Shown in pieces: positions 1 to 32,900 of a DNA stretch of 35,536 nt; position 1 is the stretch's first letter; every line of letters begins with the position of its first letter. Source of the stretch: an uncultured Gammaproteobacteria bacterium (GTDB lineage: Bacteria; Patescibacteriota; Patescibacteriia; Magasanikbacterales; UBA922); NCBI GenBank assembly GCA_964496615.1, contig CAZCAB010000001.1:1-35536 (forward strand), read 5' to 3'. The notes under the pieces are model-generated. The model did no database searches and was not told the origin of the DNA. It saw only the letters and a list, made by a program, of their open reading frames with translations. The position numbers and the translations under genes are program-made.

Positions 1-1218
1 CTGCACATTTGAAAAAATGCGTAAATATGCAAGCACGTCCTTTATATGCGCGCGCTCAAAAAAACGAACGCCCCCGCGATAGTCATACGGGATATCTCGC
101 TTTGCCAGTTCCATTTCTAGTGCTTGCGAATGAAACGCCGCCCGAAAAAGAACAGACATGCCTGAAAGTGATACACCCTCTTCTCGTAGTTCAAGAATAC
201 GCTGAGCAACAAACTCAGCCTCCTCCACTGCATCAGCGAATGCCTGGACTTCTGGCTTTCCGAGTGAGCTCACAATACTCTTGAGCTCCTTCTCGTATTG
301 AGATAAATTGCGCGTAATAACATCGTTTGCGAGCGCTAGAATTTCAGGCGTGGATCGATAGTTCGTTTCAAGTCTGTGTACGCGCGCGCTTTCATATTTA
401 TCTTCAAAACCTAAGATATTTTGAATCTCTGCAGCGCGAAATGAGTAAATGCTTTGTGCATCGTCTCCCACAACCAAAACATTCTTATGGATACTCCCGA
501 ACTGATCAACAATCGCAGCCTGAATTTTATTCGTGTCTTGATACTCATCAACGAGCACGTAGCGAAACTGCGACGCAAATTTTTCCCGAACACGAGGAGA
601 TTTAAGCAAAAGCAGGTACAAATTTGTCAGTAAATCATCAAAATCCATTGCATTTGCATCAAGCTTTCGCTTCCGATACTCATCGGCAATTCGCGCGAGT
701 GTCTCTTCATGTTCAAGCCACGATGGATGCTGCACATCAAGAACATCAGCTATTGTACTCATTGCATTTCTTGCATAGCTGATAATCGAAGAAATGACCC
801 GAGGCGATGGGAATCTTTTTTGCGTGCGATCGATCCCTTCCCCTTTCACACAGAGTTTCAAAAGATCTCGCGAATCTTCTGAATCCAAAATAGTGAAGTT
901 ATTTTGATATCCGAGCAAACCTGCGTATTGCTTCAGTATCTTATACGCAACATGATGAAACGTGCCTGCCCATGGCAACTTAACAGTACCTTCTGTCAAC
1001 AATTCAACACGCGAAAGCATCTCTCTGGATGCTTTATTCGTAAACGTTACCAATAAAATACTCCCCGGATCGACTCCTTGCTCCAGCAAATATGCAACAC
1101 GATATGTGATCGCTCTTGTCTTTCCACTCCCCGCTCCAGCCAAAACTAAACACGGTCCATCTCCATTTTGCACCACGATACGCTGCTCTTGATTTAATTC
1201 CTTTTCAAAGTTAATCAT
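1..1218 (-). CDS. uvrD: UvrD/PcrA-family ATP-dependent DNA helicase, N-terminal 406 aa; the 3' end runs off the window, so it has no stop and is absent from the ORF track
   Basis: Own translation from ATG at 1218..1216: MINFEKELNQEQRIVVQNGDGPCLVLAGAGSGKTRAITYRVAYLLE... Helicase motifs I (GAGSGKT), II (VDEYQDTN), III (VVGDDAQSIYSFRAAE) and IV (ETNYRST) are present. The frame is open to position 1. Confidence 0.9.
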   Translation of the reverse strand, partial: MINFEKELNQEQRIVVQNGDGPCLVLAGAGSGKTRAITYRVAYLLEQGVDPGSILLVTFTNKASREMLSRVELLTEGTVKLPWAGTFHHVAYKILKQYAGLLGYQNNFTILDSEDSRDLLKLCVKGEGIDRTQKRFPSPRVISSIISYARNAMSTIADVLDVQHPSWLEHEETLARIADEYRKRKLDANAMDFDDLLTNLYLLLLKSPRVREKFASQFRYVLVDEYQDTNKIQAAIVDQFGSIHKNVLVVGDDAQSIYSFRAAEIQNILGFEDKYESARVHRLETNYRSTPEILALANDVITRNLSQYEKELKSIVSSLGKPEVQAFADAVEEAEFVAQRILELREEGVSLSGMSVLFRAAFHSQALEMELAKRDIPYDYRGGVRFFERAHIKDVLAYLRIFSNVQ

Positions 1219-1224
1219 GGATGA

Positions 1225-1959
1225 TCATTGTACCATGAGTACCACTCGCCTGCCATGCTGCACATCACCACCGTTCCAATCATGGATTGTATTCATTAAA
1301 TCATCATATGTATATTCGAAATCAGCACCATGTTTTGTCCCTGGATCATTTGTTATAAAATGCTCAGGTGTATACCCCTTAATAATTAAAGCATGATACA
1401 CTGGGCCGTCGCCGCTAAAATATGGATTTGGTAAATCTTTTCCATATGCTACAACAAGTACAGGATGCCCGTGTGCAACAGACCGTTTAATTTCCTCGAC
1501 AGTTGGATTCTCAACAATGTGAAATGTTTGCCCCTTTACGTGCTCGTTGGCAAATTCTCGAACTTGTGTCATGGGAATACTATACTCCCACTCTTTCTCG
1601 TCTTGCCAAGAAACCATTTTCAGTATTTCATCACGTGAAAAAAAGGGGCTCAAGCTATATGAAGAATAGTAGGCATCAAGCATAAGGACAGCGGCTTCCT
1701 CGCATGCATCTTGCCATGGCTGTTCCCAATTTCCTTCAGGCGCTTGCGACGTAAACGGTACAGCCAAATCTTTATGTTCAGGCATGTCATCTAAAACTAC
1801 TTTTTCTTTCGCGCGTTCTTCTCTTGCAAGAATTTCAGTGTCCACTCTCACGACAATTGTGACATCTGACAAGGATGTAATTTCTCTCACCACCCAAAAA
1901 ATGCCTAAGCCGAAAAAAATGGACAGGCAAAGACAGATTCTGTTAAATCTAGAAAACAT
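1225..1959 (-). CDS. Membrane-anchored C39-like (papain-fold) cysteine peptidase
   Basis: ORF 1225..2025. Start placed at ATG 1959 (MFSRFNRICLCLSIFFGLGIFW, a TM anchor), just downstream of a terminator. Putative Cys motif WQDACEEAAVLML, His in VYHALIIKGY, and NDPG. Confidence 0.6.
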   Translation of the reverse strand: MFSRFNRICLCLSIFFGLGIFWVVREITSLSDVTIVVRVDTEILAREERAKEKVVLDDMPEHKDLAVPFTSQAPEGNWEQPWQDACEEAAVLMLDAYYSSYSLSPFFSRDEILKMVSWQDEKEWEYSIPMTQVREFANEHVKGQTFHIVENPTVEEIKRSVAHGHPVLVVAYGKDLPNPYFSGDGPVYHALIIKGYTPEHFITNDPGTKHGADFEYTYDDLMNTIHDWNGGDVQHGRRVVLMVQ

Positions 1960-1961
1960 AC

Positions 1962-1995
1962 TAAAAAGAGCGAGGGTCCCGAATCCGGCACCCTC
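1962..1995 (-). terminator. Intrinsic terminator closing the minus-strand unit of GC island 1
   Basis: On the minus strand GAGGGT(g)CCG-gatt-CGG(g)ACCCTC is followed by GCTCTTTTTAG. It lies between the stop of the 171-aa ORF (2016) and ATG 1959. Confidence 0.5.
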
Positions 1996-2015
1996 ATTCC
2001 CCTTGGCGACCCCTC

Positions 2016-2513
2016 TTAGCCGCATGTGATTCCATGAAAATCGCGATAGCGCAGGTTCTCCACCAGATCTTGAAGGGTACCGTGCAAGCGAAGCACTTGC
2101 CGACCACCCGCCTTTCTGGTGCGGTTTAGCACAATCACGACAACGAACACCGAGCCGCGTTGACTCTTGACGCGAACATCAGTACGGCCTCCATTGACGC
2201 CGCGCCGTGCAAGCGCCTCCTCAATCGCATCCTCTACTCGGCGAGCAGAACTCACCTTTGGTAGGGATACGCGATCTGATGCTTCTGACTCCTTCCTCCA
2301 GGTGCCAGCAAGAATCTGCGCACGACTCGTTTCGCGAGCGGGATGTGCTGACTTGCGTGCGTCCAGCTCTTCCCTGCCCGCTTGGGTCAATTCTCCTTCC
2401 GGTGTCAGCCACCCCTTCTTCACAGCATGGGCGACTTCTTGGTTGTACGAAGAAAAGGCTCCAAAGGGAGTCCTCAGGGCCTCATCCCATACAGGTGTGC
2501 CGTTGTTACTCAA
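2016..2513 (-). CDS. Orphan hypothetical protein (165 aa from TTG 2513; the track ORF extends to 2531), GC-rich
   Basis: SD GAGGAGG (2523-2529) lies 9 nt before TTG 2513. G at codon position 1 is 67/165 by hand count, which is coding-like. No family recognised; KKGWLTPEGELTQAGREEL is vaguely wHTH-like. Confidence 0.5.
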   Translation of the reverse strand: MSNNGTPVWDEALRTPFGAFSSYNQEVAHAVKKGWLTPEGELTQAGREELDARKSAHPARETSRAQILAGTWRKESEASDRVSLPKVSSARRVEDAIEEALARRGVNGGRTDVRVKSQRGSVFVVVIVLNRTRKAGGRQVLRLHGTLQDLVENLRYRDFHGITCG

Positions 2514-2581
2514 TCTGCAGTTCCTCCTCAATTTCTGGCATATAGGACGGCGTACCTATAGCCGACGTATCCACTCTATTC

Positions 2582-2609
2582 AGAGTACCACACATTTTTT
2601 TATGGTCAA
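2582..2609 (-). promoter_or_regulatory. Putative sigma70 promoter for the 171-aa ORF
   Basis: TTGACC-N16-TGgTACTCT (extended -10) on the minus strand, about 60 nt upstream of the SD. Confidence 0.45.
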
Positions 2610-2639
2610 AACCCGATATTGATATATGCACAGAAACGG

Positions 2640-2668
2640 TTGACGACTTGAAAAACCCATGATATTAT
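2640..2668 (+). promoter_or_regulatory. Near-consensus sigma70 promoter of the GC-rich plus-strand unit
   Basis: TTGACG (2640-2645), 17-nt spacer, TATTAT (2663-2668). Confidence 0.6.
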
Positions 2669-2675
2669 CTAGCCT

Positions 2676-3150
2676 AATGTCGTCGGATTGGCCGGTGACA
2701 CCTGCAAAGGAGAGGGGGCTTGAGCGTCTTCGCTCGGCTCCTCGCCCTCCTATGTGCACTCATGGCGCGTCCAGCGCCAGCGCAGGAGGAGACTCCTACG
2801 ACGAGAGCACCGGGGCAGGTGAGGAGACCACGGCCCCGAGGTCGCAACCACGCATGTGCCACGTTCCCTCGCTGGATCTGGTACAGAAGGTTGCTCCTTC
2901 GGGTCTGTACCAACGGCTAGGAGCCCATGCTCTTGGCCGCATCAGACATCACAAGGAGATAAAACAAACCCTCGTGGAAGAGGATGGTTCGCGACGTAGT
3001 AAGCAGCGCATCAGACGCACAGACTTATTGGACAGTCGCCACACCACAGAACAACGCACAGGGATGGGGGGACAGGAGGACAACAGACCGCCTTCCACTC
3101 ATTGACCTGTTCAATCTGGACAGATCAATGAGGAGGCGGTTTTGTTTTTT
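2676..3150 (+). ncRNA. Candidate structured ncRNA of unknown class (about 470 nt, GC-rich); a leaderless 142-aa ORF (2677..3105) is the alternative reading
   Basis: Bounded by the promoter at 2640-2668 and the terminator at 3088-3150. Dense strong hairpins include GGUACAGA...CC(UUCG)GG...UCUGUACC (2880-2911), the 10-bp GGCUAGGAGC-CCAU-GCUCUUGGCC (2915-2938) and a GGAG-GAGA-CUCC GNRA loop. The open frames show no codon-position bias by hand count. No RNase P, tmRNA, SRP or tRNA motifs found. Confidence 0.4.
3088..3150 (+). terminator. Rho-independent terminator of the GC-rich plus-strand unit
   Basis: Long imperfect hairpin with CCGCCT/AGGCGG and CTCATTGA/TCAATGAG arms (3088-3139), followed by TTTTGTTTTTT (3140-3150). 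Confidence 0.7.
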
Positions 3151-3170
3151 CTTGATAAGAAGGATATAGT
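3142..3170 (+). promoter_or_regulatory. Putative rlmH promoter, with leaderless geometry
   Basis: TTGTTT-N17-TATAGT; ATG 3179 lies 8 nt after the -10 and there is no SD. Confidence 0.4.
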
Positions 3171-3178
3171 ACAAACAT

Positions 3179-3649
3179 ATGCTCAGTTTCACCATCATAT
3201 CAGTCGGCAAACTCAAAGAATCATATTGGAGGGAAGCACAAAAAGAATACGCAAAAAGGCTTTCATCTTTTTGTCATATGAACATTGTCGAACTCAAAGA
3301 GGAAAAAAATGATGGAAAAAGTAATCGAGAATCAGTTCAAAAGAAAGAAGCGCAAAAAATACTCAAAGTGATTCCAAAAAATGACTATGTGATCACGCTT
3401 GATCCAGAAGGTCAATCCTACACGTCCCAAAAACTCAGTTCATATATTGAACTACTCACGCACGAAGTGAGCTCAATTTCGTTCATTATTGGAGGCCCAC
3501 TTGGTTTACATAAAAAAATACTGAGTCAATCAAAAAAGAGCATATCGCTCTCTTCTTTTACTTTTACGCATCAAATGGCGCGCATTATCCTTCTTGAACA
3601 ACTGTACAGAGCCTTCATGATTTCAAACAACAGACCGTACCACCACTAA
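3179..3649 (+). CDS. rlmH: 23S rRNA (pseudouridine1915-N3)-methyltransferase RlmH (SPOUT)
   Basis: 156 aa. Contains FIIGGPLGL, FTFTHQMARIILLEQLYRAF and a C-terminal RPYHH, typical of the YbeA/RlmH family. Confidence 0.9.
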   Translation: MLSFTIISVGKLKESYWREAQKEYAKRLSSFCHMNIVELKEEKNDGKSNRESVQKKEAQKILKVIPKNDYVITLDPEGQSYTSQKLSSYIELLTHEVSSISFIIGGPLGLHKKILSQSKKSISLSSFTFTHQMARIILLEQLYRAFMISNNRPYHH

Positions 3650-4596
3650 GAATCTACGACGGCACTAAACGTATTTGTTCCCAAACATTGACCACCAAGG
3701 GCAACCTCAAAATTTTGAGGAATAGCGATCTTCCAGTATGAATCCTTTGTAGAAGCACTGCCGTCAGTCGTTTTTGCAAGATTAGTCTGCACCAGCTGAG
3801 TTGTGGTCGTAAAGTATGTCATATCTGCATAGGCTTGAGCAGCGGATAGTGAAAACTTTTGCTGCGCCGCCCCTATTGTGCCTGCAGAGCACGTCATGGC
3901 AGTGCCTGAAAAATAACTATCAATACTCACATTTCCTGTATTGGTTATTGTTACAGTCGTATCTGACGTAGATGTAGCGCCAATCGCAAGCTCTCCGTAG
4001 CTAAAAAAACCAGGAACACTGAGGGCAGCAAGAGAATTTATTTCTGAACTCATATTACTACTTGTACTCGTTGCGAAATCGTTATCGGAAACAGTCACCC
4101 ATGCGACCCATGTGTCTGATGGATATCCATCAGAGTCAGTTGAGTCTGCATAATATTGAAGCGTAAAATCACACTCATAACTAACTGTTCCTTCATTACC
4201 GATAACACACCCTGTAATTGTGCAATCCCCGCCAGAATAGGTGACGCGATAACAATTATTGTTATCTGCAGAACAATTTTGTGCATTAGAAACACTACTA
4301 CGGTAATATACACTCTTGAGCGAATTATTATTTAAATTCGAACATCCGTCTCCGTCAGAAATATCCCCCCTCACATAAACTGCTTTTGTCGAATTTTCAT
4401 TCAAATGGATGTTCCCTGCAACTGAGGGTCCATCTGGTGTTGAAGTCGTGACGATAACTGAATCAACAGTAGGAGAAAAAGCACTTTTTGCCGGCTCTAT
4501 GAAAGAGTGAGATCCCAAAATTATAAGACCAATTATGTACGCAGCTATAAACGTCGACCAAACAACCAATTCTTTCTTGTTTCCTTGTTTAATCAT
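3646..4596 (-). CDS. Hypothetical Ser/Thr-rich, Cys-containing cell-surface protein with an N-terminal TM anchor
   Basis: 316-aa ORF with hydrophobic N-terminus VVWSTFIAAYIIGLIILG. ATGA overlap with the upstream ORF (4593-4596). Ends in TAG, overlapping the rlmH stop convergently. Confidence 0.6.
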   Translation of the reverse strand: MIKQGNKKELVVWSTFIAAYIIGLIILGSHSFIEPAKSAFSPTVDSVIVTTSTPDGPSVAGNIHLNENSTKAVYVRGDISDGDGCSNLNNNSLKSVYYRSSVSNAQNCSADNNNCYRVTYSGGDCTITGCVIGNEGTVSYECDFTLQYYADSTDSDGYPSDTWVAWVTVSDNDFATSTSSNMSSEINSLAALSVPGFFSYGELAIGATSTSDTTVTITNTGNVSIDSYFSGTAMTCSAGTIGAAQQKFSLSAAQAYADMTYFTTTTQLVQTNLAKTTDGSASTKDSYWKIAIPQNFEVALGGQCLGTNTFSAVVDS

Positions 4597-5966
4597 ACTT
4601 GAGCGTCTTCATTTTCAGATAAAAAGTGATCTTCAGAGGGTCTCACGTCAATCGTTGGAATGTCTGGGAGTACTGTTTGCATGCTCGGCCCTTTCACTTC
4701 TACACCATTTTGGCTCCTTTTAGGTGTCTCACGTTTTCTTCGAACTAGAACAAACGCACCCAAAATGATGAGGAGTACAAATCCAAATACGCTAAAAAAG
4801 CGGAAGCGGACTACTGGATCTCCGAGAAAGGCAAAAGTTGCAGCAAAAAACTGATAGATCACTCCCCCAACCTGAAACCTCACAACGTGCGTATCTTTCA
4901 TATCAACCCCAAAGTTCATGGTCGCCAGTAGTGCGTATGCTCCTCGTGATGGAGGAGTATACAATGTCGTAAATGTTGTGCGCTGCCCTTCACTAAAAGG
5001 TATATCTTTGGTTAAACTGAATGTCTCAACTTTTGTTTTTCCTTTAAAGACTTCGAGTTTGGCAGATGGTACATAGTTACTGGTTCCAGTATTCTCAACC
5101 ACAACCTCAATTTTGACTTTCTCGCCTTTCTTTAATTGCGATGAACTCAAGAGTACGTCACGAATTTTCCCAGACTGAGACAATATTCCTTCTGGATATA
5201 CGCGTAGAAGGGCGCTTTTTGAAACCACGTTGTCTACATCATACTTCGCCAAAATCGCGAGCTCATATTCTCCTGCATCAAGAAGCAAATCTGAAGTAAG
5301 CACGAGCGACTTCTGTTTACGAGGACTTACCCCACGAACTTTAGAAGTATCAATGGTGGACGTTACGACTGATACCCCGGACTCGTCAAACACCTCAAGT
5401 AGAACCTCAGAAAAACGAAAATCAACAGTCCCTCTATTTGCAATCTCAAACTCGAGCTGAACCGGACTCCCCGCTTGCGCAGGTTGCACATTAGCAAAAC
5501 GTACGTCAGCATCATGAACTTCTTGTCCAGTTACTTCAAAGTGAATCCGTCCCACAGCACCACTCTGAGCGTCAACGCTTTGCCCGCTCCTAGTTCTTGC
5601 TTGAATTTTCGTTGCCGGCTCAGCAACTAAGAATACATCATATGTTCCATTCGGTGCCGTGCGGACATCAAGTGTAAACTCTACACCGACAGATCTCGCA
5701 CCTTCAGAAAATTCAAGTATACGTCTTGAGAGCTTCACGTACTCAGATCCAAATCCCTCCACGCGCACACTGTAAGCTCGCTTCTTATCTATTTCAGAAT
5801 TTGTAATTCTGAATTCATCCGAAAAAGTTGCTGTTTTGGTAAGTCTACCACTTTCAATGGTACTCGGACTGATACCTGTCGCAAAGGTAAAAGAGATAAA
5901 ACCAAATAAACCACCCAGGAGTAGACCGGGTAGAAGCAAAAAACGAATGTATTTTTCTACACGCAT
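4593..5966 (-). CDS. Hypothetical membrane-anchored protein with about three Ig-like (CARDB/NEW3-like) repeats and a C-terminal TM plus charged tail
   Basis: ORF 4593..5984. Start placed at ATG 5966 (MRVEKYIRFLLLPGLLLGG, signal-like), 6 nt after TGgTATACT (5973-5981). Repeated beta-rich modules of about 100 aa. TM segment FFSVFGFVLLIILGAFVLV. Confidence 0.6.
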   Translation of the reverse strand: MRVEKYIRFLLLPGLLLGGLFGFISFTFATGISPSTIESGRLTKTATFSDEFRITNSEIDKKRAYSVRVEGFGSEYVKLSRRILEFSEGARSVGVEFTLDVRTAPNGTYDVFLVAEPATKIQARTRSGQSVDAQSGAVGRIHFEVTGQEVHDADVRFANVQPAQAGSPVQLEFEIANRGTVDFRFSEVLLEVFDESGVSVVTSTIDTSKVRGVSPRKQKSLVLTSDLLLDAGEYELAILAKYDVDNVVSKSALLRVYPEGILSQSGKIRDVLLSSSQLKKGEKVKIEVVVENTGTSNYVPSAKLEVFKGKTKVETFSLTKDIPFSEGQRTTFTTLYTPPSRGAYALLATMNFGVDMKDTHVVRFQVGGVIYQFFAATFAFLGDPVVRFRFFSVFGFVLLIILGAFVLVRRKRETPKRSQNGVEVKGPSMQTVLPDIPTIDVRPSEDHFLSENEDAQV

Positions 5967-5992
5967 AGCTTTAGTATACCACAAAAATATCG

Positions 5993-7027
5993 CTATGATC
6001 GTAAAAAACGATGCACATTGATATTATGCTCATCAAGTGTACGTGCGTACTTTACCTCCCCTTCGAGCGTGGTGATAAAATACCAGTAATCGTTTGGTTC
6101 AGGATATAACGCTGCCTTGATACTCTCCAAACTTGGACTTGAAATGGGGCCAAGCGGCAAACCCGGATATTTATACGTATTGTATGCTGAAAGCGATTCT
6201 CGGTCCTCTTTTGTAGTAAATACATCACCACGCTTTCCGACAGCGTAGTGAACGGTCGAGTCTGCTTGCAGAGCCCAATGTGCATCATATCGTCTCCAGA
6301 AAAGATCAGCCACTTTTGCTTTGTCTTCAGGACTACGCACTTCCCGCTCCACAATACTTGCAAGTGTTATGACTTCAAACATGGTCCTCCCATTTTTCTC
6401 TGCATCAGCATACATCTGATCAGTGATCTGATTATCACGATGATCAATGAGCTTTCGCACGATGTCCTCTATGGATGCATCCTTAAAAATACGAAATGTG
6501 TCAGGAGATAGATACCCTTCAAGCGTCACATATGGCGAAATATCTTTAAGCACTCGAGCATCGCTCGATATCCGCGGTGGTCTTCCTCTCTGTGTTTTGT
6601 AATTATACGCAGGTTTCCCTGTTACAGCGAATACTTCTTCTTCAGATGCAATGCCTTGCTCCTGAAGGTACGCTGCGATCTCTCTGAGGCTCCAACCCGG
6701 AAGGATCGTTATGGTCTGTTCATCATAACTTGGCCTATCAAGCGCCTCGACCACTCGCGCCAATGTGATCGGGCGCTCGACTACAAACGTTCCTTCTCTA
6801 ATTTCAGTATCAAGACCCTTGATAACTAAATACTTCTCAAAGAATGATGCACTGCGCACGATTCCTTCCTTTTCCAATCTGTTAGATAACGTTGCCACTG
6901 TTTCCCCTCGCTCTATGCGAAACGTTACAGAATCAACTTGCTGCGCCGTCGCACTGTAAATTTCAGAATAGATAAACCATGCCCCAACAAGAGCGCACAA
7001 AAAAAAGATACTCAGAAAAAAACGCAT
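5993..7027 (-). CDS. mltG: Endolytic murein transglycosylase MltG (YceG-like)
   Basis: LASIVEREV (catalytic Glu motif), LQADSTVHYA and YNTYKYPGLPLGPISSPSLESIKAAL. Start placed at ATG 7027 (MRFFLSIFFLCALVGAW) to avoid overlap with the upstream gene. Confidence 0.85.
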   Translation of the reverse strand: MRFFLSIFFLCALVGAWFIYSEIYSATAQQVDSVTFRIERGETVATLSNRLEKEGIVRSASFFEKYLVIKGLDTEIREGTFVVERPITLARVVEALDRPSYDEQTITILPGWSLREIAAYLQEQGIASEEEVFAVTGKPAYNYKTQRGRPPRISSDARVLKDISPYVTLEGYLSPDTFRIFKDASIEDIVRKLIDHRDNQITDQMYADAEKNGRTMFEVITLASIVEREVRSPEDKAKVADLFWRRYDAHWALQADSTVHYAVGKRGDVFTTKEDRESLSAYNTYKYPGLPLGPISSPSLESIKAALYPEPNDYWYFITTLEGEVKYARTLDEHNINVHRFLRS

Positions 7028-7031
7028 ACCA

Positions 7032-7727
7032 CTATACAAAGAGATGATGATGCTCCCGCGCCCAACGCAATCTTTCAGGCACACCAATATCTACCCATGG
7101 AACATCTGATACATATACATACAAATCCTTCATATGCGGAAACACATCATACTCAATACTAAAAGCATCCTGAGTAGGGAAATAATCTGAAACGCGCGGC
7201 GTGAATAAGTACAGACCTGCATTTATCACGCCAGGCTCATGCATACCCTGCTTTTCCTTAAATGCCTGAAGATGATTCTCCAAATCATACTCAAGCGTCC
7301 CATAGGTGCTTGCATCATCCACCTGAGCTCCGTAGATAACACCATCGCTGGATAGATTAAGCTTGGCAGCCATGTCAGAAAAATCGATCGTATAAAGTAT
7401 ATCCCCATTCAGTACCCATGTCGGCTGATCGGGGGAACTGATGTATGAAAGTGCATGTTTAATCGCACCACCTGTTCCGAGACGTTTTTCTTCAATGACA
7501 TATATGAGTCGGACCCCTTCGCGCTCTCCACCAATCTTCTCTTGCAGAACCTCCGCCAAATGTCCGGCCGCCAGTATAACTTCATGAACACCTGCCGCCT
7601 TTAGCTTTCTGAGCTGCAGATCAAGAACACTGATTCCTCCAATATCAAGTAAAATTTTCGGGATATCCTTTGTGATATCACCAAGTCGTGTTGAAAGTCC
7701 GCCACAGAGAATGATTGCGTTATGCAT
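7032..7727 (-). CDS. Sugar-phosphate nucleotidyltransferase (NTP_transferase family)
   Basis: N-terminal IILCGGLSTRLG...PKILL signature, GTGGAIKHAL, and a VDIGVPERL C-terminal motif. Confidence 0.8.
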   Translation of the reverse strand: MHNAIILCGGLSTRLGDITKDIPKILLDIGGISVLDLQLRKLKAAGVHEVILAAGHLAEVLQEKIGGEREGVRLIYVIEEKRLGTGGAIKHALSYISSPDQPTWVLNGDILYTIDFSDMAAKLNLSSDGVIYGAQVDDASTYGTLEYDLENHLQAFKEKQGMHEPGVINAGLYLFTPRVSDYFPTQDAFSIEYDVFPHMKDLYVYVSDVPWVDIGVPERLRWAREHHHLFV

Positions 7728-14042: not shown

Positions 14043-14081
14043 CCCCCGCCCACCTCGACCTTTCGGTGAGGTGGGCGGGGG
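14043..14081. other. Very strong GC hairpin at the 3' end of the 99-aa cassette
   Basis: CCCCCGCCCACCTC / GAGGTGGGCGGGGG, a 14-bp perfect stem, with an inner ACC-GAAA-GGT on the minus strand. There is no adjacent U-tract; the canonical terminator follows 10 nt later. Confidence 0.7.
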
Positions 14082-14133
14082 TCGTTGGTTCTGCTGCCCC
14101 CAATGATGTCGGATCTCAGCGCTGGGGCGGCTA

Positions 14134-14433
14134 CTACTCGCTGACCTGCAGGTAGCCGGCCCGCTCCTCGGCGTTGTAGAAGCCCTCGACGCGGAGACCG
14201 CCGACGGGCATGCCCTCGATCGCGTTCATGAGGTTCCCACGGATGCAGAACATCCCGCGAGAGCCGGACTCGTAGCTGAGTCCGGTAATCTGCACGACCA
14301 CCTGACCGGTCTCGTGCGAGGTCTCGAACGTCGCGGTCGCGCCACGGGGATCGAAAGCGCGTGCGAACGCGTCGAGGATGTCGGGCGTCGAGGGGTTCAG
14401 GGGGTTCTTGAGAATGTCGATCCTGACCTTCAT
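14134..14433 (-). CDS. Orphan 99-aa protein with high-GC codon usage (MKVRIDILKNPLNPSTPDILDAFARAFDPRG...YLQVSE)
   Basis: SD GGAGGA (14438-14443) lies 4 nt before ATG 14433. About 88 of 99 codons end in G or C and 38/99 start with G (hand counts). Double stop TAGTAG. No family recognised. Confidence 0.65.
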   Translation of the reverse strand: MKVRIDILKNPLNPSTPDILDAFARAFDPRGATATFETSHETGQVVVQITGLSYESGSRGMFCIRGNLMNAIEGMPVGGLRVEGFYNAEERAGYLQVSE

Positions 14434-14488
14434 GTGCTCCTCCATGCGGCTGAAAGTGATATGCTGGCACCGCAAGACCAGACAACAG

Positions 14489-14517
14489 ACTATACCACAT
14501 AAAAGGAAATTTGTCAA
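14489..14517 (-). promoter_or_regulatory. Consensus promoter of the 99-aa cassette
   Basis: TTGACA (14512-14517), 17-nt spacer, TATAGT (14489-14494), followed by a 5' leader of about 55 nt. Confidence 0.65.
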
Positions 14518-14519
14518 TA

Positions 14520-14548
14520 CTAAAATACCCCAAATGTGGGGTATTTTC
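14520..14548. terminator. Intrinsic terminator after the PRC-barrel gene
   Basis: ATACCCCA-(4 nt)-TGGGGTAT flanked by A and T runs. Confidence 0.7.
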
Positions 14549-19877: not shown

Positions 19878-20261
19878 ATGGACCCACGATTCGCAGAAAT
19901 GACTCCAGAACAAAGACAGGCAATCCTTGGTGTTGCTGATACAGAGCCGAACATTCCTGCCATCTCAGGAGAAGATACACGCGTCGACGATGCAGTTGAC
20001 CTTACGTCTGAAGCAATACCACTGGATGTCCAACACGGCCCCCCTCCTGAACCAAGCGTTGCAGAGCTTGCGGCACGCACCCCGGTCACCGGACCTGCTG
20101 AGGGCGACGCAGAGCCTGAAGCAGGAACATCTCTATACATCGGAGAAGGTGATGAGGAAGGTGTCATTGCAAGTATACCGCCAGCTGAAAACTTTGATTC
20201 ACTTGGGCAAACGATTGATACCATGCCGGTTGTGGATGTACCACCAGAACAAAGAAATTAA
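19878..20261 (+). CDS. Hypothetical acidic, probably disordered protein
   Basis: 127 aa. G at codon position 1 is about 48% by hand count, which is coding-like. AVDLTSEAIPLD resembles the repeat motif of the upstream protein. Followed by a terminator. Confidence 0.55.
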   Translation: MDPRFAEMTPEQRQAILGVADTEPNIPAISGEDTRVDDAVDLTSEAIPLDVQHGPPPEPSVAELAARTPVTGPAEGDAEPEAGTSLYIGEGDEEGVIASIPPAENFDSLGQTIDTMPVVDVPPEQRN

Positions 20262-29963: not shown

Positions 29964-32900
29964 TCACGGTGAATACGCAAATGCCTCTGCTACAGAGCTA
30001 AATCCAGCGCTTTTTGCCAGATCGTGCAATCCATTAATATTTTTGATCATCAATGTTATCTTAAGCGGAGCCTTCAAACCATATTTTTTCAGAACTACCA
30101 TGACGTGTGACAGTGCGATCATGTCCTGCTGCGCAACAAGAGCCGCAAGCTCTTTGTCTATATTCGCACGCCTCTTTTTTGGAATATCAGTAAGATCATT
30201 TACCGCGATCACATAATCAACAAATGCATTGATCCTCTGCCCTACATCTTGCAGCGCAAATAACTGCGCGATCATCGCTCTATCGCGTGCATCAAGTTCG
30301 ATATAGTTATTCCTGTCGATTATAGCAACGCGTTTCTCGCCACCCTCTTGAGACACCATGAAATTACCAGGGTGCACATCAGCATGAACCAAACTTACCT
30401 CCCGCTTCTTTTTACCACTGCCGAGCTTCAAGGGATGCATAATTTGATAGCTATAATTCTTCGTTATCAATGAAACAATTTCTTTAAGATCATGATCCTC
30501 AAGCTCCTCTGGCCGCACGAGTGTCTGCCCATCAACAAACTCTTCAACTTTCACATATGTATTGTCACTACCATCTCCTTCTATCATTGTTGATTGAGGA
30601 ACATACATGGTATATTCATGGCCTGCAGCGGTAAATCCGTGATTTACCTCTTTGAAAGCAGGATCAGTCTCATGGAATCGATCATATTTGATATCCTCAA
30701 TAACCCAAGCCTCAATCTCGTCTATCGCAGCTCGAGCTGGCGCGTAGCGCTCCGACCGCGTCTCAACAAGTATTTCAAACGTGCGTTTGAGCATGCGCAC
30801 CACCTCAGTGACATACATCTCGGCATTGGGATTAAGAACTTTCACAACGCGCTTGGAACCATCTTTCATATCACACAGATATGTAGACATCAGAGAACCA
30901 CCTCCGATTCGACCGACCATACGCTCAATGTATTCAGGTGCATCCTGCCATTCACGTTTGAGTGTGTTTGATGCGGTAAGCTTTGATTGACCCTTTACAC
31001 TATCATACGCATCACGAAACATGTTCTGCAGCCTTTGAGGAACATCAACATACTGACCTATCACCTGCAAAAACCGAATACCCACTGCCCCAAGACTTTC
31101 AGCAAGTTTAACTACGAACTCCTCAGTAGCCATTTTCTTTTGATCAATAGTTTCTAGTGGGTCTAACTGATTTTCAAGTTTGCGGCGCTGATGCACATAC
31201 TTAAGATTGAAACTAAAACTAGAATCTTCCACGCCATCCTCCGTTACTAACACCCGAGGACCAGCTCCTGACATTTGTTGTTCCATATTCTTGTACTCCC
31301 TAACCATCTTATCAAGATTTTTCTCGTCCTCTTCCCGTCTTTTGCGCTCCTCCTCTATCTCATCATCAGAGATTCCATCAGTCCAAGAATAATTATATAA
31401 ATCAAAACCATAATAATCATTAAACACCTGTCGCCATGGGGTTGGCTCTGATGGCGGTCTCAAGATTCTACTATGTATAAGCGGAGCGAGACCAAAAAAC
31501 AACATGTCCTCATCTACCTCACTGATTGCGACCTTCAGCACTTCCTTCATAACATCTTGCAGACTGCGACGATCTGAAGTTCGGCCATCCGAAACAAACT
31601 CACCAAGCATGTACTTAAGCAGCCATTTCCGACGCGCCTCAGTACGAAGAAGGCCCTTTTCACCAATCAAAAGCTCTCGAACGATCGCAAAACGCATCAT
31701 ATCGTTAATACCGAAAAGCGACCGAGTCCGTTGATCAGCCACATACGCTGCATCAGGTGCGTTGTCATAATCGTCACCCGCGTATACGCCGCGAGAAAAA
31801 AAATAGCTTTTCAAACCAGCGTCATCCCCACTCGCATTCATACATAGCTTAAACATTTCTTTCATATCCATTTTCTTCCCGAATTGCTCCATAAGGGCGA
31901 GCGCTCCCATCTTCGTAGGTTCTACCATTGATTCAAATTGATCAAGAAGCACATCCTCCACTCTTGAAAGCTCTTCAAATGATTGTGCATCACGTTCAAT
32001 AAACAATTCTCGCTGTTCTTTATTAAGCGTTGCCTTTGCTGCTGGATTGAGAAAAAAAGCATGCAACCTGTCTTCAAATGTGCCGGCTGACGCTTGTCTA
32101 CTTAAAATACCAGCCTGAAGTCGTGATCTGAAGCCTTGATCTTCATGTATTACTGCAACATACATGAGCAGCTCTCGATCCTGAGGATCATCCAAATCAA
32201 AATCATATGCTTCAATTATCTCCCGAGCAAGTCGATGAGAGCGTAAATTATCTACATACCTAAACCAATAATCTGCCATTTGCCTAAGTTTTTGGCTGAC
32301 AAATTCCTTTGGTGGAGATTGCTCCTTTTTCTTATTGGATGGATCATTCTTATATTCCCACATTGCATACATGAAATTATCACAATACATTTCCCACATC
32401 GTCTTGACGGTTTCGCTATCCGAGTGTAGGGGACTGTTGCCCAAAAGTTTGTTTGGTCTAAAACTCACAACATCTAGACCTTTAAGCCGCTCATGTTCAC
32501 CAGTGATAATCTGCGCAGCCTCAAACAAGTAGTTAAGACGCTCATCCATACTCGGATTCTTTTCATCATGTTCGAATGGATCATAGGTAATCTCACCAAC
32601 AGTATATATAAGAGAAATATGGTGAGTATACATTCGATATAGTTCGGGACGAGATCTGAGCATGATAAGCAACTCCCTGTCTCTATCCACACTCGATTCT
32701 GGAAGAAAATCCACCCCATCTATGATCAGATCAAGTATCCAATTGTTTACCATGGCCTCATAACTGTGCTCTGTCAAACCTACGCCATCTGATTCTTCAG
32801 CCACATGCTCTTCCAGCCATATAAAAAACGCTTCAAGCTTTTGAATTGAATCAACCTCAAACATCTTTAAGACGTATGCGAGTTCATAATCTTCAGGCTC

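What the first reader, a model, noticed from the sequence alone, without database searches (positions are those of the whole stretch)
1962..3150. Self-contained GC-rich ~1.2 kb island with divergent protein and RNA units between housekeeping genes
Between the C39-like peptidase and rlmH the composition jumps from AT-rich background to clearly GC-rich. The segment holds two divergent transcription units that share a less GC-rich control region of about 130 bp with back-to-back promoters. These are TTGACC-N16-TGgTACTCT at 2582-2609 (minus) and TTGACG-N17-TATTAT at 2640-2668 (plus). Each unit ends in an outward-facing intrinsic terminator (1962-1995 and 3088-3150). The minus unit encodes a 165-171 aa orphan protein with a strong SD (GAGGAGG) and a coding-like G excess at codon position 1 (67/165 by hand count). 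I recognise no family for it. The plus unit looks non-coding and is described in the next finding. This insulated layout differs from the surrounding tightly packed, SD-less operons and suggests an acquired protein-plus-RNA module of unknown function.
Basis: partly seen in the sequence, partly recalled or inferred. Interest (0 to 1): 0.75.

Follow-up and report, generated by a model that had tools for sequence, protein, structure and literature searches.

The report
GC-rich protein-plus-RNA cassette in Magasanikbacteria
A 1.2 kb GC-rich segment in a Magasanikbacteria (candidate phyla radiation) genome holds a small, probably DNA-binding protein gene and, back to back with it, a likely ~475-nt structured non-coding RNA gene that matches no known RNA family; it is real and shared with one related species, but its function is unknown.

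Summary
Window 1962-3150 is 55% GC against 44%. GC3 of the ORF is 0.55 against 0.39 +/- 0.04 in host genes. The two back-to-back promoters, both terminators, the GAGGAGG SD and the 67/165 G count are all there.

The minus-strand ORF (165 aa, TTG start) is a real gene: its substitutions concentrate at third codon positions. It is not a pure orphan. It belongs to a small, fast-evolving, Magasanikbacteria-only family: a winged-helix-like N-domain, a linker and an alpha-beta-beta-beta-alpha C-domain. Other members are AT-rich, SD-less and sit next to the same C39-like peptidase and uvrD.

The plus unit (~2677-3150) matches no Rfam family and shows no codon periodicity. Its long ORFs are not frame-conserved. 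It has a strong conserved consensus fold, promoter and terminator in a second species. It is most likely a structured ncRNA, but a 66-aa SD+TTG ORF inside it is not excluded.

The island lies in the same place (rlmH | RNA | ORF | peptidase | uvrD) in a relative whose synonymous sites are nearly saturated. It is therefore neither a chimera nor a recent insertion, and its GC-richness is maintained. Similar GC-rich, SD-bearing orphan cassettes flank this peptidase in many Magasanikbacteria. Function is inferred only: a regulator paired with a divergent RNA.

The parts
1962..1995 (-). Intrinsic-terminator-like hairpin (1972-1995, one G.G mismatch) plus T-run, ending the protein unit. The peptidase ATG (1959) follows directly.
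   Evidence: Read. About 90% identical over 40 nt in L001/L088. Not listed by the simple scanner because of the internal mismatch.
2016..2513 (-). Protein gene, 165 aa, TTG start. N-terminal winged-helix-like domain (about res 10-54), disordered linker (55-85), C-terminal alpha-beta-beta-beta-alpha domain (86-160).
   Evidence: Codon-position differences against L001 are 64/51/104, with 60 synonymous and 73 non-synonymous codon changes. Homologs are P0002 at 56% and P0004 at 23%. Pfam PF24409 E = 1.1e-5, below its cut-off. AF2 models. GC3 is 0.55 against host 0.39.
2523..2529 (-). Shine-Dalgarno GAGGAGG, 9 nt upstream of the TTG start.
   Evidence: The same GAGGAGG occurs before TTG in L001 and before GTG in L002. 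Host genes lack SD.
2582..2609 (-). Promoter of the protein unit: TTGACC-N16-TACTCT with TGg (extended -10).
   Evidence: The same type occurs in L001 (TTGACA...TGaTACAGT) and L002 (TTGACG...TGgTACGCT).
2640..2668 (+). Promoter of the RNA unit: TTGACG-N17-TATTAT with TG.
   Evidence: 10/12. Conserved in L001/L088 as TTGACA-N17-TACCAT with TG.
2677..3150 (+). Candidate structured non-coding RNA, about 475 nt. The 5' end is inferred from the -10 box. The most conserved core is 2897-2960.
   Evidence: No Rfam match. No tRNA or tmRNA. MFE z = -5.8 (window) and -7.9 (L001) with terminator, -2.75 and -4.98 without, antisense -1.6 and -1.95, host genes about 0. Consensus fold -137 kcal/mol with 114 pairs, all cells paired, 10 double-sided changes against 1-2 in slid controls. 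The coding control gives only -63. No codon periodicity.
2720..2920 (+). Unresolved small ORF inside the RNA unit: AAGGAG-N6-TTG, 66 aa, hydrophobic N-terminus, Arg-rich.
   Evidence: In frame with a 69-aa ORF in L088 but removed by a 37-nt deletion in the near-identical L001. Amino-acid identity is 0.55, against 0.47 and 0.41 in the other frames. Synonymous/non-synonymous is 10/30. No periodicity.
3088..3150 (+). Long hairpin terminator of the RNA unit plus T-run. The rlmH -10 box (TATAGT 3165-3170) and ATG (3179) follow.
   Evidence: 21 pairs, one U-G to G-C change. The sequence GGATATAGTA downstream is conserved in L088.

Best explanation
The island is an old, lineage-specific two-gene cassette of a Magasanikbacteria lineage, with two parts.

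(a) A small two-domain protein, probably nucleic-acid-binding (winged-helix-like N-domain, alpha-beta-beta-beta-alpha C-domain). It belongs to a fast-evolving Magasanikbacteria family that is normally encoded beside the C39-like peptidase and uvrD.

(b) A divergently transcribed, roughly 475-nt, highly structured RNA of a so far undescribed family.

Proposed mechanism (inferred, not shown): the protein binds the ~130-bp shared control region and regulates both its own gene and the RNA gene. This is the regulator-plus-divergent-RNA layout known from oxyR/oxyS and gcvA/gcvB. Alternatively, or additionally, the protein binds the RNA through its C-domain. The RNA acts in trans.

Shown: both units are real, conserved and compositionally distinct; the protein is under coding constraint; the RNA unit is not. 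Inferred: DNA or RNA binding, the functional coupling, and any downstream role.
For: - Island and signals confirmed.
- The same order, rlmH | RNA | ORF | peptidase | uvrD, occurs in L088/L089/L090/L001, which are independent assemblies of a related species.
- Protein: coding-type substitution pattern; winged-helix-like match; the motif FG..YN...A..GWL..G.LT..G is shared with L003, L008, L026, L040 and L043 proteins.
- The two-domain model has pLDDT 66, and the C-domain alone 71.5.
- RNA: conserved extended -10 promoter and terminator.
- RNA: strong conserved consensus structure compared with a coding control.
- RNA: strand-specific folding z-scores.
- RNA: uniform substitutions over codon positions.
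- RNA: full-length ORFs run through non-homologous frames and are broken by a 37-nt indel between near-identical strains.
- The -35 boxes are back to back, 18-30 nt apart, which fits shared control.
Against: - Only two species carry the RNA, so covariation rests on effectively two sequences. RNAalifold also finds 'compensatory' pairs in a coding control.
- GC-rich coding cassettes also fold better than shuffles, z = -1.5 to -5.4.
- Six family members (L002, L003, L008, L026, L040, L043) have no such RNA next to them. The pairing may be a coincidence of two cassettes at an insertion hot spot.
- No conserved operator-like repeat was found in the control region.
- The winged-helix match is below Pfam's cut-off, and no structural neighbour is significant (best E = 0.12).
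- A 66-69-aa SD+TTG ORF is conserved in frame in two species.
Confidence: 0.45

Rival explanations
1. Two unrelated GC-rich cassettes lie side by side by chance. The region around the C39-like peptidase is a hot spot where Magasanikbacteria accumulate independent GC-rich, self-expressed cassettes. Under this reading the RNA unit and the protein unit have no functional link.
For: - GC-rich cassettes with their own promoter, SD and terminator flank the peptidase in many loci. At the tgt|peptidase junction: L011, L019, L025, L036, L037. At the peptidase|uvrD junction: L007, L016, L017, L025, L031.
- An unrelated HNH-like family occupies the same slot in four genomes.
- The protein family occurs without the RNA in six genomes.
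Against: - Both units are kept together, in the same arrangement and with closely abutting promoters, in two species whose synonymous sites are near saturation.
- The two units share the same unusual composition and the same AGGAG enrichment.
Confidence: 0.28
2. The plus unit is a protein-coding cassette, or a dual-function RNA. It would encode a 66-69-aa hydrophobic, Arg-rich peptide from AAGGAG-N6-7-TTG. One possibility is a small membrane toxin or effector whose expression is controlled by the divergent winged-helix protein.
For: - SD, TTG start and stop are conserved, and all indels between window and L088 inside the ORF are multiples of three.
- The protein gene of the island also starts with TTG after an SD.
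- Most other GC-rich cassettes encode small SD-led orphan proteins.
- Amino-acid identity is slightly higher in this frame: 0.55 against 0.47 and 0.41.
- The N-terminus stays hydrophobic in both species.
Against: - There is no third-position excess of substitutions ([9,11,8] and [8,10,8]). Synonymous/non-synonymous is 10/30, similar to the wrong frames.
- A 37-nt deletion destroys the ORF in the near-identical L001.
- The ORF's pyrimidine-rich 5' part pairs with a purine-rich stretch whose changes keep the pairing but not the amino acids.
- The most conserved part of the unit is the stop-codon region plus a 230-nt 'UTR'.
- GC2 of 0.63 is typical of a spurious ORF.
Confidence: 0.17
3. The RNA is a long cis-acting leader or attenuator of rlmH, which follows it on the same strand in both species.
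For: The RNA is co-oriented with rlmH and ends 29 nt before the rlmH ATG in the window. The arrangement is the same in L088.
Against: - A strong terminator separates them, and a conserved -10 box (GGATATAGTA) lies between the terminator and the ATG at the distance seen for other leaderless-looking host genes.
- rlmH in four other Magasanikbacteria loci has no such upstream element.
- The composition differs sharply from rlmH.
Confidence: 0.05
4. Assembly chimera or contamination: a GC-rich fragment from another organism was joined into an AT-rich contig.
For: Only the sharp compositional borders.
Against: - The same junctions on both sides appear in a second species, in an NCBI MAG, two ENA assemblies from different runs and a Logan assembly.
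- A remote homolog cassette is likewise embedded in AT-rich DNA.
Confidence: 0.01

Closest known systems
Transcription factor genes with a divergently transcribed regulatory RNA gene (E. coli oxyR/oxyS, gcvA/gcvB). Recalled from my own knowledge, not tested here.
   Same: A small DNA-binding-type protein gene and an RNA gene are transcribed back to back from a short shared control region. The RNA has its own promoter and an intrinsic terminator.
   Different: Those regulators are LysR-type and their RNAs are about 100-200 nt and Hfq-dependent. Here the protein is a 165-aa winged-helix-like protein with an unclassified C-domain. The RNA is about 475 nt, GC-rich and highly structured. No regulation has been shown.
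Large structured bacterial ncRNAs of unknown function, found as GC-rich intergenic regions (OLE, ROOL, GOLLD, raiA).
   Same: Several hundred nucleotides long, extensive conserved helices, stands out by GC content in an AT-richer genome, own promoter and terminator, no known function.
   Different: None of these Rfam families, nor any other, matches. The distribution seen so far is two species only. It is paired with a specific small protein gene.
wHTH-PRTase associated domain (Pfam PF24409), which is the C-terminal winged helix of the retron type III-A PRTase effector (PADLOC PRTase_III-A).
   Same: Residues 29-64 match the recognition helix and wing part of the profile: E = 1.1e-5 in Pfam and E = 0.003 in PADLOC. 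In retrons this domain accompanies a structured ncRNA.
   Different: The score is below Pfam's gathering cut-off. There is no reverse transcriptase and no PRTase next to it, and no msr/msd-like features. The rest of the protein is unrelated.
Double-stranded-RNA-binding domain (dsRBD) and hibernation-factor-like alpha/beta folds.
   Same: The predicted C-domain topology is alpha-beta-beta-beta-alpha. The top weak Foldseek neighbours include PACT D3, the RNase III dsRBD, Loqs, DRB4 and chloroplast PSRP1/HPF.
   Different: No match is significant (best E = 0.12, TM 0.3-0.45). The dsRBD sequence motifs are not visible. This is a lead only.
Type I and type III toxin-antitoxin modules.
   Same: A compact, self-contained module that pairs a protein gene with an RNA gene, and a possible small hydrophobic peptide.
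   Different: There are no tandem repeats in the RNA as in ToxI. There is no antisense overlap between the RNA and an mRNA. The protein shows no nuclease signature.

Membership tests
Any Rfam 15 RNA family (RNase P, tmRNA, SRP, 6S, OLE, ROOL, GOLLD, HEARO, group I/II introns and others) | Covariance-model score at or above the family's gathering threshold | tested here: not met
   No match at gathering thresholds on the whole window. The best sub-threshold hits on 1900-3250 and on L088 are chance-level (E >= 0.24, 12-20 bits against thresholds of 43-380). ARAGORN finds no tRNA or tmRNA.
Structured non-coding RNA (generic) | Conserved secondary structure supported by covariation across homologs | tested here: inconclusive
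   There are 114 consensus pairs, 100% of cells paired, and 10 double-sided changes against 1-2 in slid controls. Only two distinct sequences are available, the structure was derived from them, and a coding control also yields 'compensatory' pairs.
Structured non-coding RNA (generic) | Absence of protein-coding constraint | tested here: met
   Substitutions are uniform over codon positions in every block. No frame has a synonymous excess. Long ORFs pass through non-homologous frames and are broken by a 37-nt indel between strains. The 66-aa ORF remains undecided.
Pfam PF24409 wHTH-PRTase_assc | Whole-protein score at or above the gathering cut-off (27 bits) | tested here: not met
   25.9 bits, E = 1.1e-5, residues 29-64 on profile positions 28-62 of 83. 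Probably a related winged helix, but not a certified member.
Retron (type III-A) | A reverse transcriptase gene and a PRTase effector adjacent to the ncRNA | tested here: not met
   The neighbours are the C39-like peptidase, uvrD and rlmH. The only PADLOC hit is the weak wHTH segment.
dsRBD | Significant structural or sequence similarity to dsRBD domains | tested here: not met
   Foldseek best E is 0.12-0.17 with TM 0.3-0.45. There is no Pfam dsrm hit at E <= 1.
Type III toxin-antitoxin (ToxIN-like) | An RNA made of tandem direct repeats next to an endoribonuclease gene | tested here: not met
   No repeat family occurs within 2670-3150. The protein has no nuclease match.
Recently acquired genomic island | Atypical composition | tested here: met
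   GC is 0.55 against 0.44. GC3 is 0.55 against 0.39 +/- 0.04. Tetranucleotide z = 2.4-3.0.
Recently acquired genomic island | Absent from close relatives, with mobility genes, a tRNA or flanking repeats at the borders | tested here: not met
   The island is present at the same site in a species with near-saturated synonymous divergence. There is no tRNA, no border repeats and no integrase or transposase nearby. There is no match in phage or plasmid collections.
Sigma-70-type promoter plus intrinsic terminator transcription unit | -35/-10 hexamers with 16-18 nt spacing, and a GC hairpin followed by a T-run, conserved in homologs | tested here: met
   Transcription itself was not testable here.

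The most novel reading that the evidence does not exclude
The RNA is the founding member of a new class of large structured RNA that works with a winged-helix/dsRBD-like partner protein in CPR bacteria. The island is one example of a wider, undescribed phenomenon. Magasanikbacteria, whose own genes are SD-less and often look leaderless, carry a population of GC-rich, SD-led, promoter- and terminator-insulated orphan cassettes at hot spots. The foreign-looking composition and translation signals of these cassettes are actively maintained over long evolutionary times, by selection or by a biased process such as gene conversion, rather than being a fading trace of transfer.
Probability: 0.2. Interest if true: 0.75.

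Novelty: new member of a known kind. Interest (0 to 1): 0.5.

Why it matters
CPR bacteria have tiny genomes, so a 1.2 kb module kept intact across species with its own strong expression signals is probably useful to the cell.

If the RNA is real, it adds a large structured RNA family with a candidate protein partner in a phylum where almost no regulatory RNAs are known.

The context may matter more than the island itself. GC-rich, SD-bearing orphan cassettes sit in genomes whose native genes lack SD, and they hold their composition despite saturated synonymous divergence. That raises a testable question about how two translation-initiation styles and two compositions coexist in one small genome, and where these cassettes come from.

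Tried and rejected
- **Known RNA families.** Rfam at gathering and at permissive thresholds on the window and on L088, and ARAGORN: nothing.
- **Protein annotation.** NCBIfam, PADLOC, PHROGs and PDB sequence search gave nothing usable beyond a weak wHTH segment.
- **Structure search.** Foldseek of two AF2 models against PDB and BFVD found no significant neighbour.
- **Protein homolog searches.** The word-indexed search found only the query itself. The exhaustive phmmer search over 1.84 billion representatives found two real relatives plus one repeat-protein artefact, P0003. A profile search with 8 sequences added only P0006-P0008. The L043 protein found only itself.
- **Protein-pattern scan of GTDB genomes.** No hit.
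- **RNA pattern scans.** Two metagenome scans gave 0 hits. Two viral scans gave five 16-mer hits, shown to be chance by nhmmer, and 0 hits.
- **BLASTN of the island** against phage and plasmid collections: no match.
- **nhmmer of the RNA** against 80 related loci found only L037:5505-5621 at E = 0.045, at the 3' end and terminator region of another cassette. I judged it chance.
- **Trans target.** A 13-nt complementarity of the RNA to the start region of the gene at 4596 is not conserved in L088, so I rejected it.
- **Operator search.** No conserved inverted or direct repeat in the control region.
- **AGGAG/GGAGG enrichment as an RNA-specific 'sponge' feature.** The enrichment is real (11 observed, 2.4 expected) but equally present in the protein mRNA, so it is not specific.
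- **Full-length ORFs of 148 and 143 aa across the RNA unit.** They are individually unlikely (p = 0.05 and 0.03 against shuffles). They start inside the -10 box, use non-homologous frames and are broken in L088. I rejected them as genes.
- **Literature searches** on CPR GC-rich RNAs and on SD/leaderless translation in Patescibacteria: nothing relevant.
Full report
**1. The observation**

Window 1962-3150 is 55.3% GC, against 43.1% upstream and 43.6% downstream. The ORF is 56.6% GC and the putative RNA 58%, and the control region between them drops to 41%. In 300-nt windows, only this island, a second patch at 13.9-14.5 kb and a weak one at 19.9 kb exceed mean + 2 sd. Tetranucleotide distance gives z = 2.4-3.0 for the island.

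The plus-strand promoter TTGACG-N17-TATTAT (2640-2668, with TG) is reported by the scan. The minus-strand promoter TTGACC-N16-TGgTACTCT (2609-2582) can be read directly. Both terminator hairpins exist.

The SD GAGGAGG (2529-2523) lies 9 nt before a TTG at 2513, which gives a 165-aa product. Only 2 of 25 host gene starts have any GAGG/GGAG. Several host genes have a -10-like box about 8 nt before the ATG, so they look leaderless.

One correction: the peptidase starts at 1959, not 2025.

**2. Where it comes from, and whether it is an artefact**

Scanning GTDB genomes with the C39-like peptidase returned 80 loci. The best were Candidatus Magasanikbacteria (CPR/Patescibacteria), and peptidase-uvrD synteny is conserved among them.

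The ORF's only close relative, P0002 (56% identity), lies on a 2.3 kb NCBI MAG contig (L001) in the order RNA(-)/ORF(+)/peptidase/uvrD. A 90%-cluster mate, P0009, lies on 50-52 kb ENA contigs and a Logan contig from two sequencing runs (L088-L090). The order there is yceG-CARDB-313aa-rlmH-[RNA]-ORF-peptidase-uvrD, the mirror image of window 1-7087. Both junctions are thus reproduced in four further independent assemblies of a second species, which excludes a chimera.

**3. The protein unit**

Between the window and L001, differences fall 64/51/104 on codon positions 1/2/3, with 60 synonymous and 73 non-synonymous codon changes. This is a gene under purifying selection.

Annotation libraries give only a sub-threshold match of residues 29-64 to the winged-helix profile PF24409 (25.9 bits, cut-off 27, E = 1.1e-5), and the corresponding C-terminal segment of the PADLOC retron III-A PRTase model (E = 0.003). 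No PDB sequence match was found.

AF2 predicts three parts:
- a small N-domain with pLDDT around 80;
- a disordered linker at residues 55-85;
- an alpha-beta-beta-beta-alpha C-domain (pLDDT 71.5 and pTM 0.59 when modelled alone).

Foldseek finds no significant neighbour. The recurring weak hits (E 0.12-0.6) are dsRBDs and hibernation-factor-like proteins, which share that topology. This is a lead, not a classification.

**4. The protein is not a pure orphan**

An exhaustive phmmer search of 1.84 billion representatives found P0002, a 23%-identical protein P0004, and one repeat-protein artefact, P0003.

P0004 (L002, a Logan contig) is again a 59-64% GC cassette in a 43% GC context. It has a TTGACG...TGgTACGCT promoter, a GAGGAGG SD, a hairpin terminator and tgt directly upstream, but no divergent RNA.

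An HMM built from these three sequences, run on six-frame ORFs of the 80 loci and iterated once, detected further members. They share the motif FG..YN...A..GWL..G.LT..G and the same overall layout:
- L008 6922-7428
- L003 6853-7356
- L040 6729-7556 (the motif region appears twice, judged by eye)
- L043 1351-2271 (the motif region appears twice, judged by eye)
- L026 3811-4362

Four of the five lie between the peptidase and uvrD in operon-like spacing. All have background GC (0.29-0.41) and no SD.

The family is therefore native to Magasanikbacteria and linked to this neighbourhood. Only the window, L001/L088 and L002 versions are GC-rich, with their own promoter, SD and terminator.

**5. The plus unit**

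There is no Rfam match at curated or permissive thresholds, in the window or in L088, and no tRNA or tmRNA.

The homologous segment in L001/L088 is about 70-75% identical. It keeps the TTGAC-N17-TGnTAnnAT promoter and the long terminator hairpin. Long invariant blocks include CTGTACCAACGGCTAGGAGC.CATGCTCTTGGCCGCATCA and ACACCACAGAA.

Folding z-scores:

| Segment | z-score |
|---|---|
| Window RNA with terminator | -5.8 |
| L001 RNA with terminator | -7.9 |
| Window RNA without terminator | -2.75 |
| L001 RNA without terminator | -4.98 |
| Antisense, window / L001 | -1.6 / -1.95 |
| Eleven host gene segments | -0.65 to +1.3 |
| GC-rich coding cassettes | -1.5 to -5.4 |

Because the GC-rich coding cassettes also fold better than shuffles, thermodynamics alone does not decide the question.

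The consensus fold has 114 pairs in 16 helices at -137 kcal/mol. Every cell is paired. There are 10 double-sided changes, against 1-2 when partners are slid. A coding control of the same length gives only -63 kcal/mol and short scattered helices, although RNAalifold also 'finds' 23 compensatory pairs there. With two sequences, pair counts are therefore weak evidence.

**6. Coding potential of the plus unit**

Substitutions are spread evenly over codon positions in every ungapped block, and no frame has a synonymous excess.

Both the window and L001 have an ORF spanning the whole unit (148 and 143 aa; p = 0.05 and 0.03 against shuffles). These ORFs start in the -10 box, run through non-homologous frames because of 1-, 34-, 2-, 14- and 2-nt indels, and are broken in L088. 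L088 differs from L001 mainly by a 37-nt hairpin-sized indel.

A shorter ORF (2720-2920, AAGGAG-N6-TTG, 66 aa) is colinear and in frame with a 69-aa ORF in L088. Its amino-acid identity (0.55) barely exceeds the other frames (0.47 and 0.41). Its synonymous/non-synonymous count is 10/30. It is destroyed in L001. Its pyrimidine-rich 5' half pairs with a purine-rich stretch whose changes keep the pairing but not the amino acids.

I conclude that a structured ncRNA is the best reading. A small peptide or a dual-function RNA stays open.

**7. Age and composition**

Between the window and L088, third-codon positions differ at 0.47-0.60 in six flanking genes and at 0.64 in the island's gene. Amino-acid identities are 0.45-0.90 for the flanks and 0.55 for the island's gene. 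The island has therefore diverged about as much as its surroundings. This fits presence in the common ancestor.

Yet GC3 is 0.54-0.55 in both lineages, against 0.32-0.42 in the flanks. With synonymous sites near saturation, a passively decaying import should have approached host composition. Either the composition is maintained, by selection (for instance for RNA structure) or by a biased process, or related GC-rich copies were acquired independently at the same site.

There is no tRNA, integrase or border repeat, and nothing similar in phage or plasmid collections.

**8. Wider context**

Among Magasanikbacteria loci, 55-68% GC patches are common. They are absent from the Shapirobacteria and other CPR loci recovered by the same scan.

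Many are small genes just upstream or downstream of the peptidase. They have SD-like sequences and almost no Pfam match: 9 of 10 tested had none. One family with a TRHHxVP motif (which looks HNH-like to me, although Pfam found no match) occupies the tgt|peptidase slot in L019, L025, L036 and L037 at 32-39% identity.

The window has a second such cassette at 14043-14520 (-): TTGACA-N17-TATAGT, GGAGGAG, a 99-aa ORF with GC3 = 0.89, and a strong terminator. The island is one instance of a class.

**9. Mechanism**

Shown:
- two conserved, insulated transcription-unit-like segments;
- a constrained protein gene of a lineage-specific family with a winged-helix-like domain;
- an unconstrained-for-coding, strongly and conservedly folding partner unit.

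Inferred: the protein binds the shared control region, which would give autoregulation and control of the divergent RNA as in oxyR/oxyS-type pairs, and/or binds the RNA through its C-domain. The RNA then acts in trans.

I found no operator repeat and no conserved target complementarity. The RNA is missing next to six family members. The functional coupling therefore carries only moderate confidence (0.45), with 'two independent cassettes' as the main rival (0.28).

**10. Verdict**

This is a real, reproducible feature. Novelty is at the level of new families in a known kind of arrangement, namely a regulator-like protein with a divergent structured RNA. The broader pattern of maintained GC-rich, SD-bearing cassettes in an SD-less genome is the more surprising lead.

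Noticed in passing
window 14043-14520 (minus strand): A second self-contained GC-rich cassette, up to 66% GC. It has a TTGACA-N17-TATAGT promoter with TG, a GGAGGAG SD and a 99-aa ORF (14134-14433, GC3 = 0.89) with no Pfam match, followed by a strong GC hairpin terminator at 14043-14082. It is the strongest tetranucleotide outlier in the window (z up to 4.3). It is embedded in what the mechanical ORF list shows as a 495-aa ORF.
   Followed up: partly
window, 25 gene starts (for example 3165-3181, 9092, 15596, 22048): Host genes lack Shine-Dalgarno motifs (2 of 25 have GAGG). Several have a TATAGT/TATACT-like box about 8 nt before the start codon, which suggests leaderless mRNAs. The two GC-rich cassettes carry strong SDs instead. 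Whether the 16S rRNA has an anti-SD could not be checked.
   Followed up: partly
L011:5078-5596, L019:5448-5942, L025:4735-5286 and 6676-7539, L036:5100-5603, L037:5051-5542, L007:7109-8437, L016:7296-8759, L017:6935-7762, L031:7157-8551, L038:3813-4064: GC-rich (0.51-0.67) genes, mostly SD-led and without Pfam matches, flank the C39-like peptidase in many Magasanikbacteria, at the tgt|peptidase and peptidase|uvrD junctions. The non-Magasanikbacteria CPR loci from the same scan show no such patches. L019, L025, L036 and L037 form one family with a TRHHxVP motif that looks HNH-like to me, although Pfam found no match.
   Followed up: partly
L001:1-432 versus L088:9468-10000: Two assemblies of the same species differ in the RNA gene by a 37-nt hairpin-sized indel (present in L088 and in the window, absent in L001) and one SNP. 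This looks like population-level variation in a peripheral stem. An assembly difference is not excluded.
   Followed up: partly
window 2677-3150 and 2016-2575: AGGAG/GGAGG motifs are enriched about 4-fold over dinucleotide shuffles, both in the RNA (11 against 2.4; five sites conserved in L088, three of them unpaired: 2708, 2954, 3074) and in the protein mRNA (8 against 2.1). This may be an oligonucleotide signature of these cassettes or a binding motif.
   Followed up: partly
window 1959-1995: The terminator of the island's protein gene ends only about 3 nt before the peptidase start codon. No promoter-like box is visible in between. Peptidase and uvrD expression may depend on read-through from the island's promoter.
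   Followed up: no
L002:2990-3125: Downstream of the P0004 cassette there are two different GC-rich palindromic hairpins, ATCCCCGCGTAGGCGGGGAT and ATTCCCGCTTTCGCGGGAAT. They resemble REP-like or CRISPR-repeat-like elements. The contig ends there.
   Followed up: no
window 19878-20261 (+): A third, milder GC-rich patch (54%). It is a 127-aa acidic, Pro/Glu-rich ORF followed by a terminator. It does not have the cassette signals of the other two.
   Followed up: partly
window 32701-33450: A tetranucleotide outlier (z = 2.3-2.7) and low-GC stretch (0.35) inside the 1574-aa ORF.
   Followed up: no
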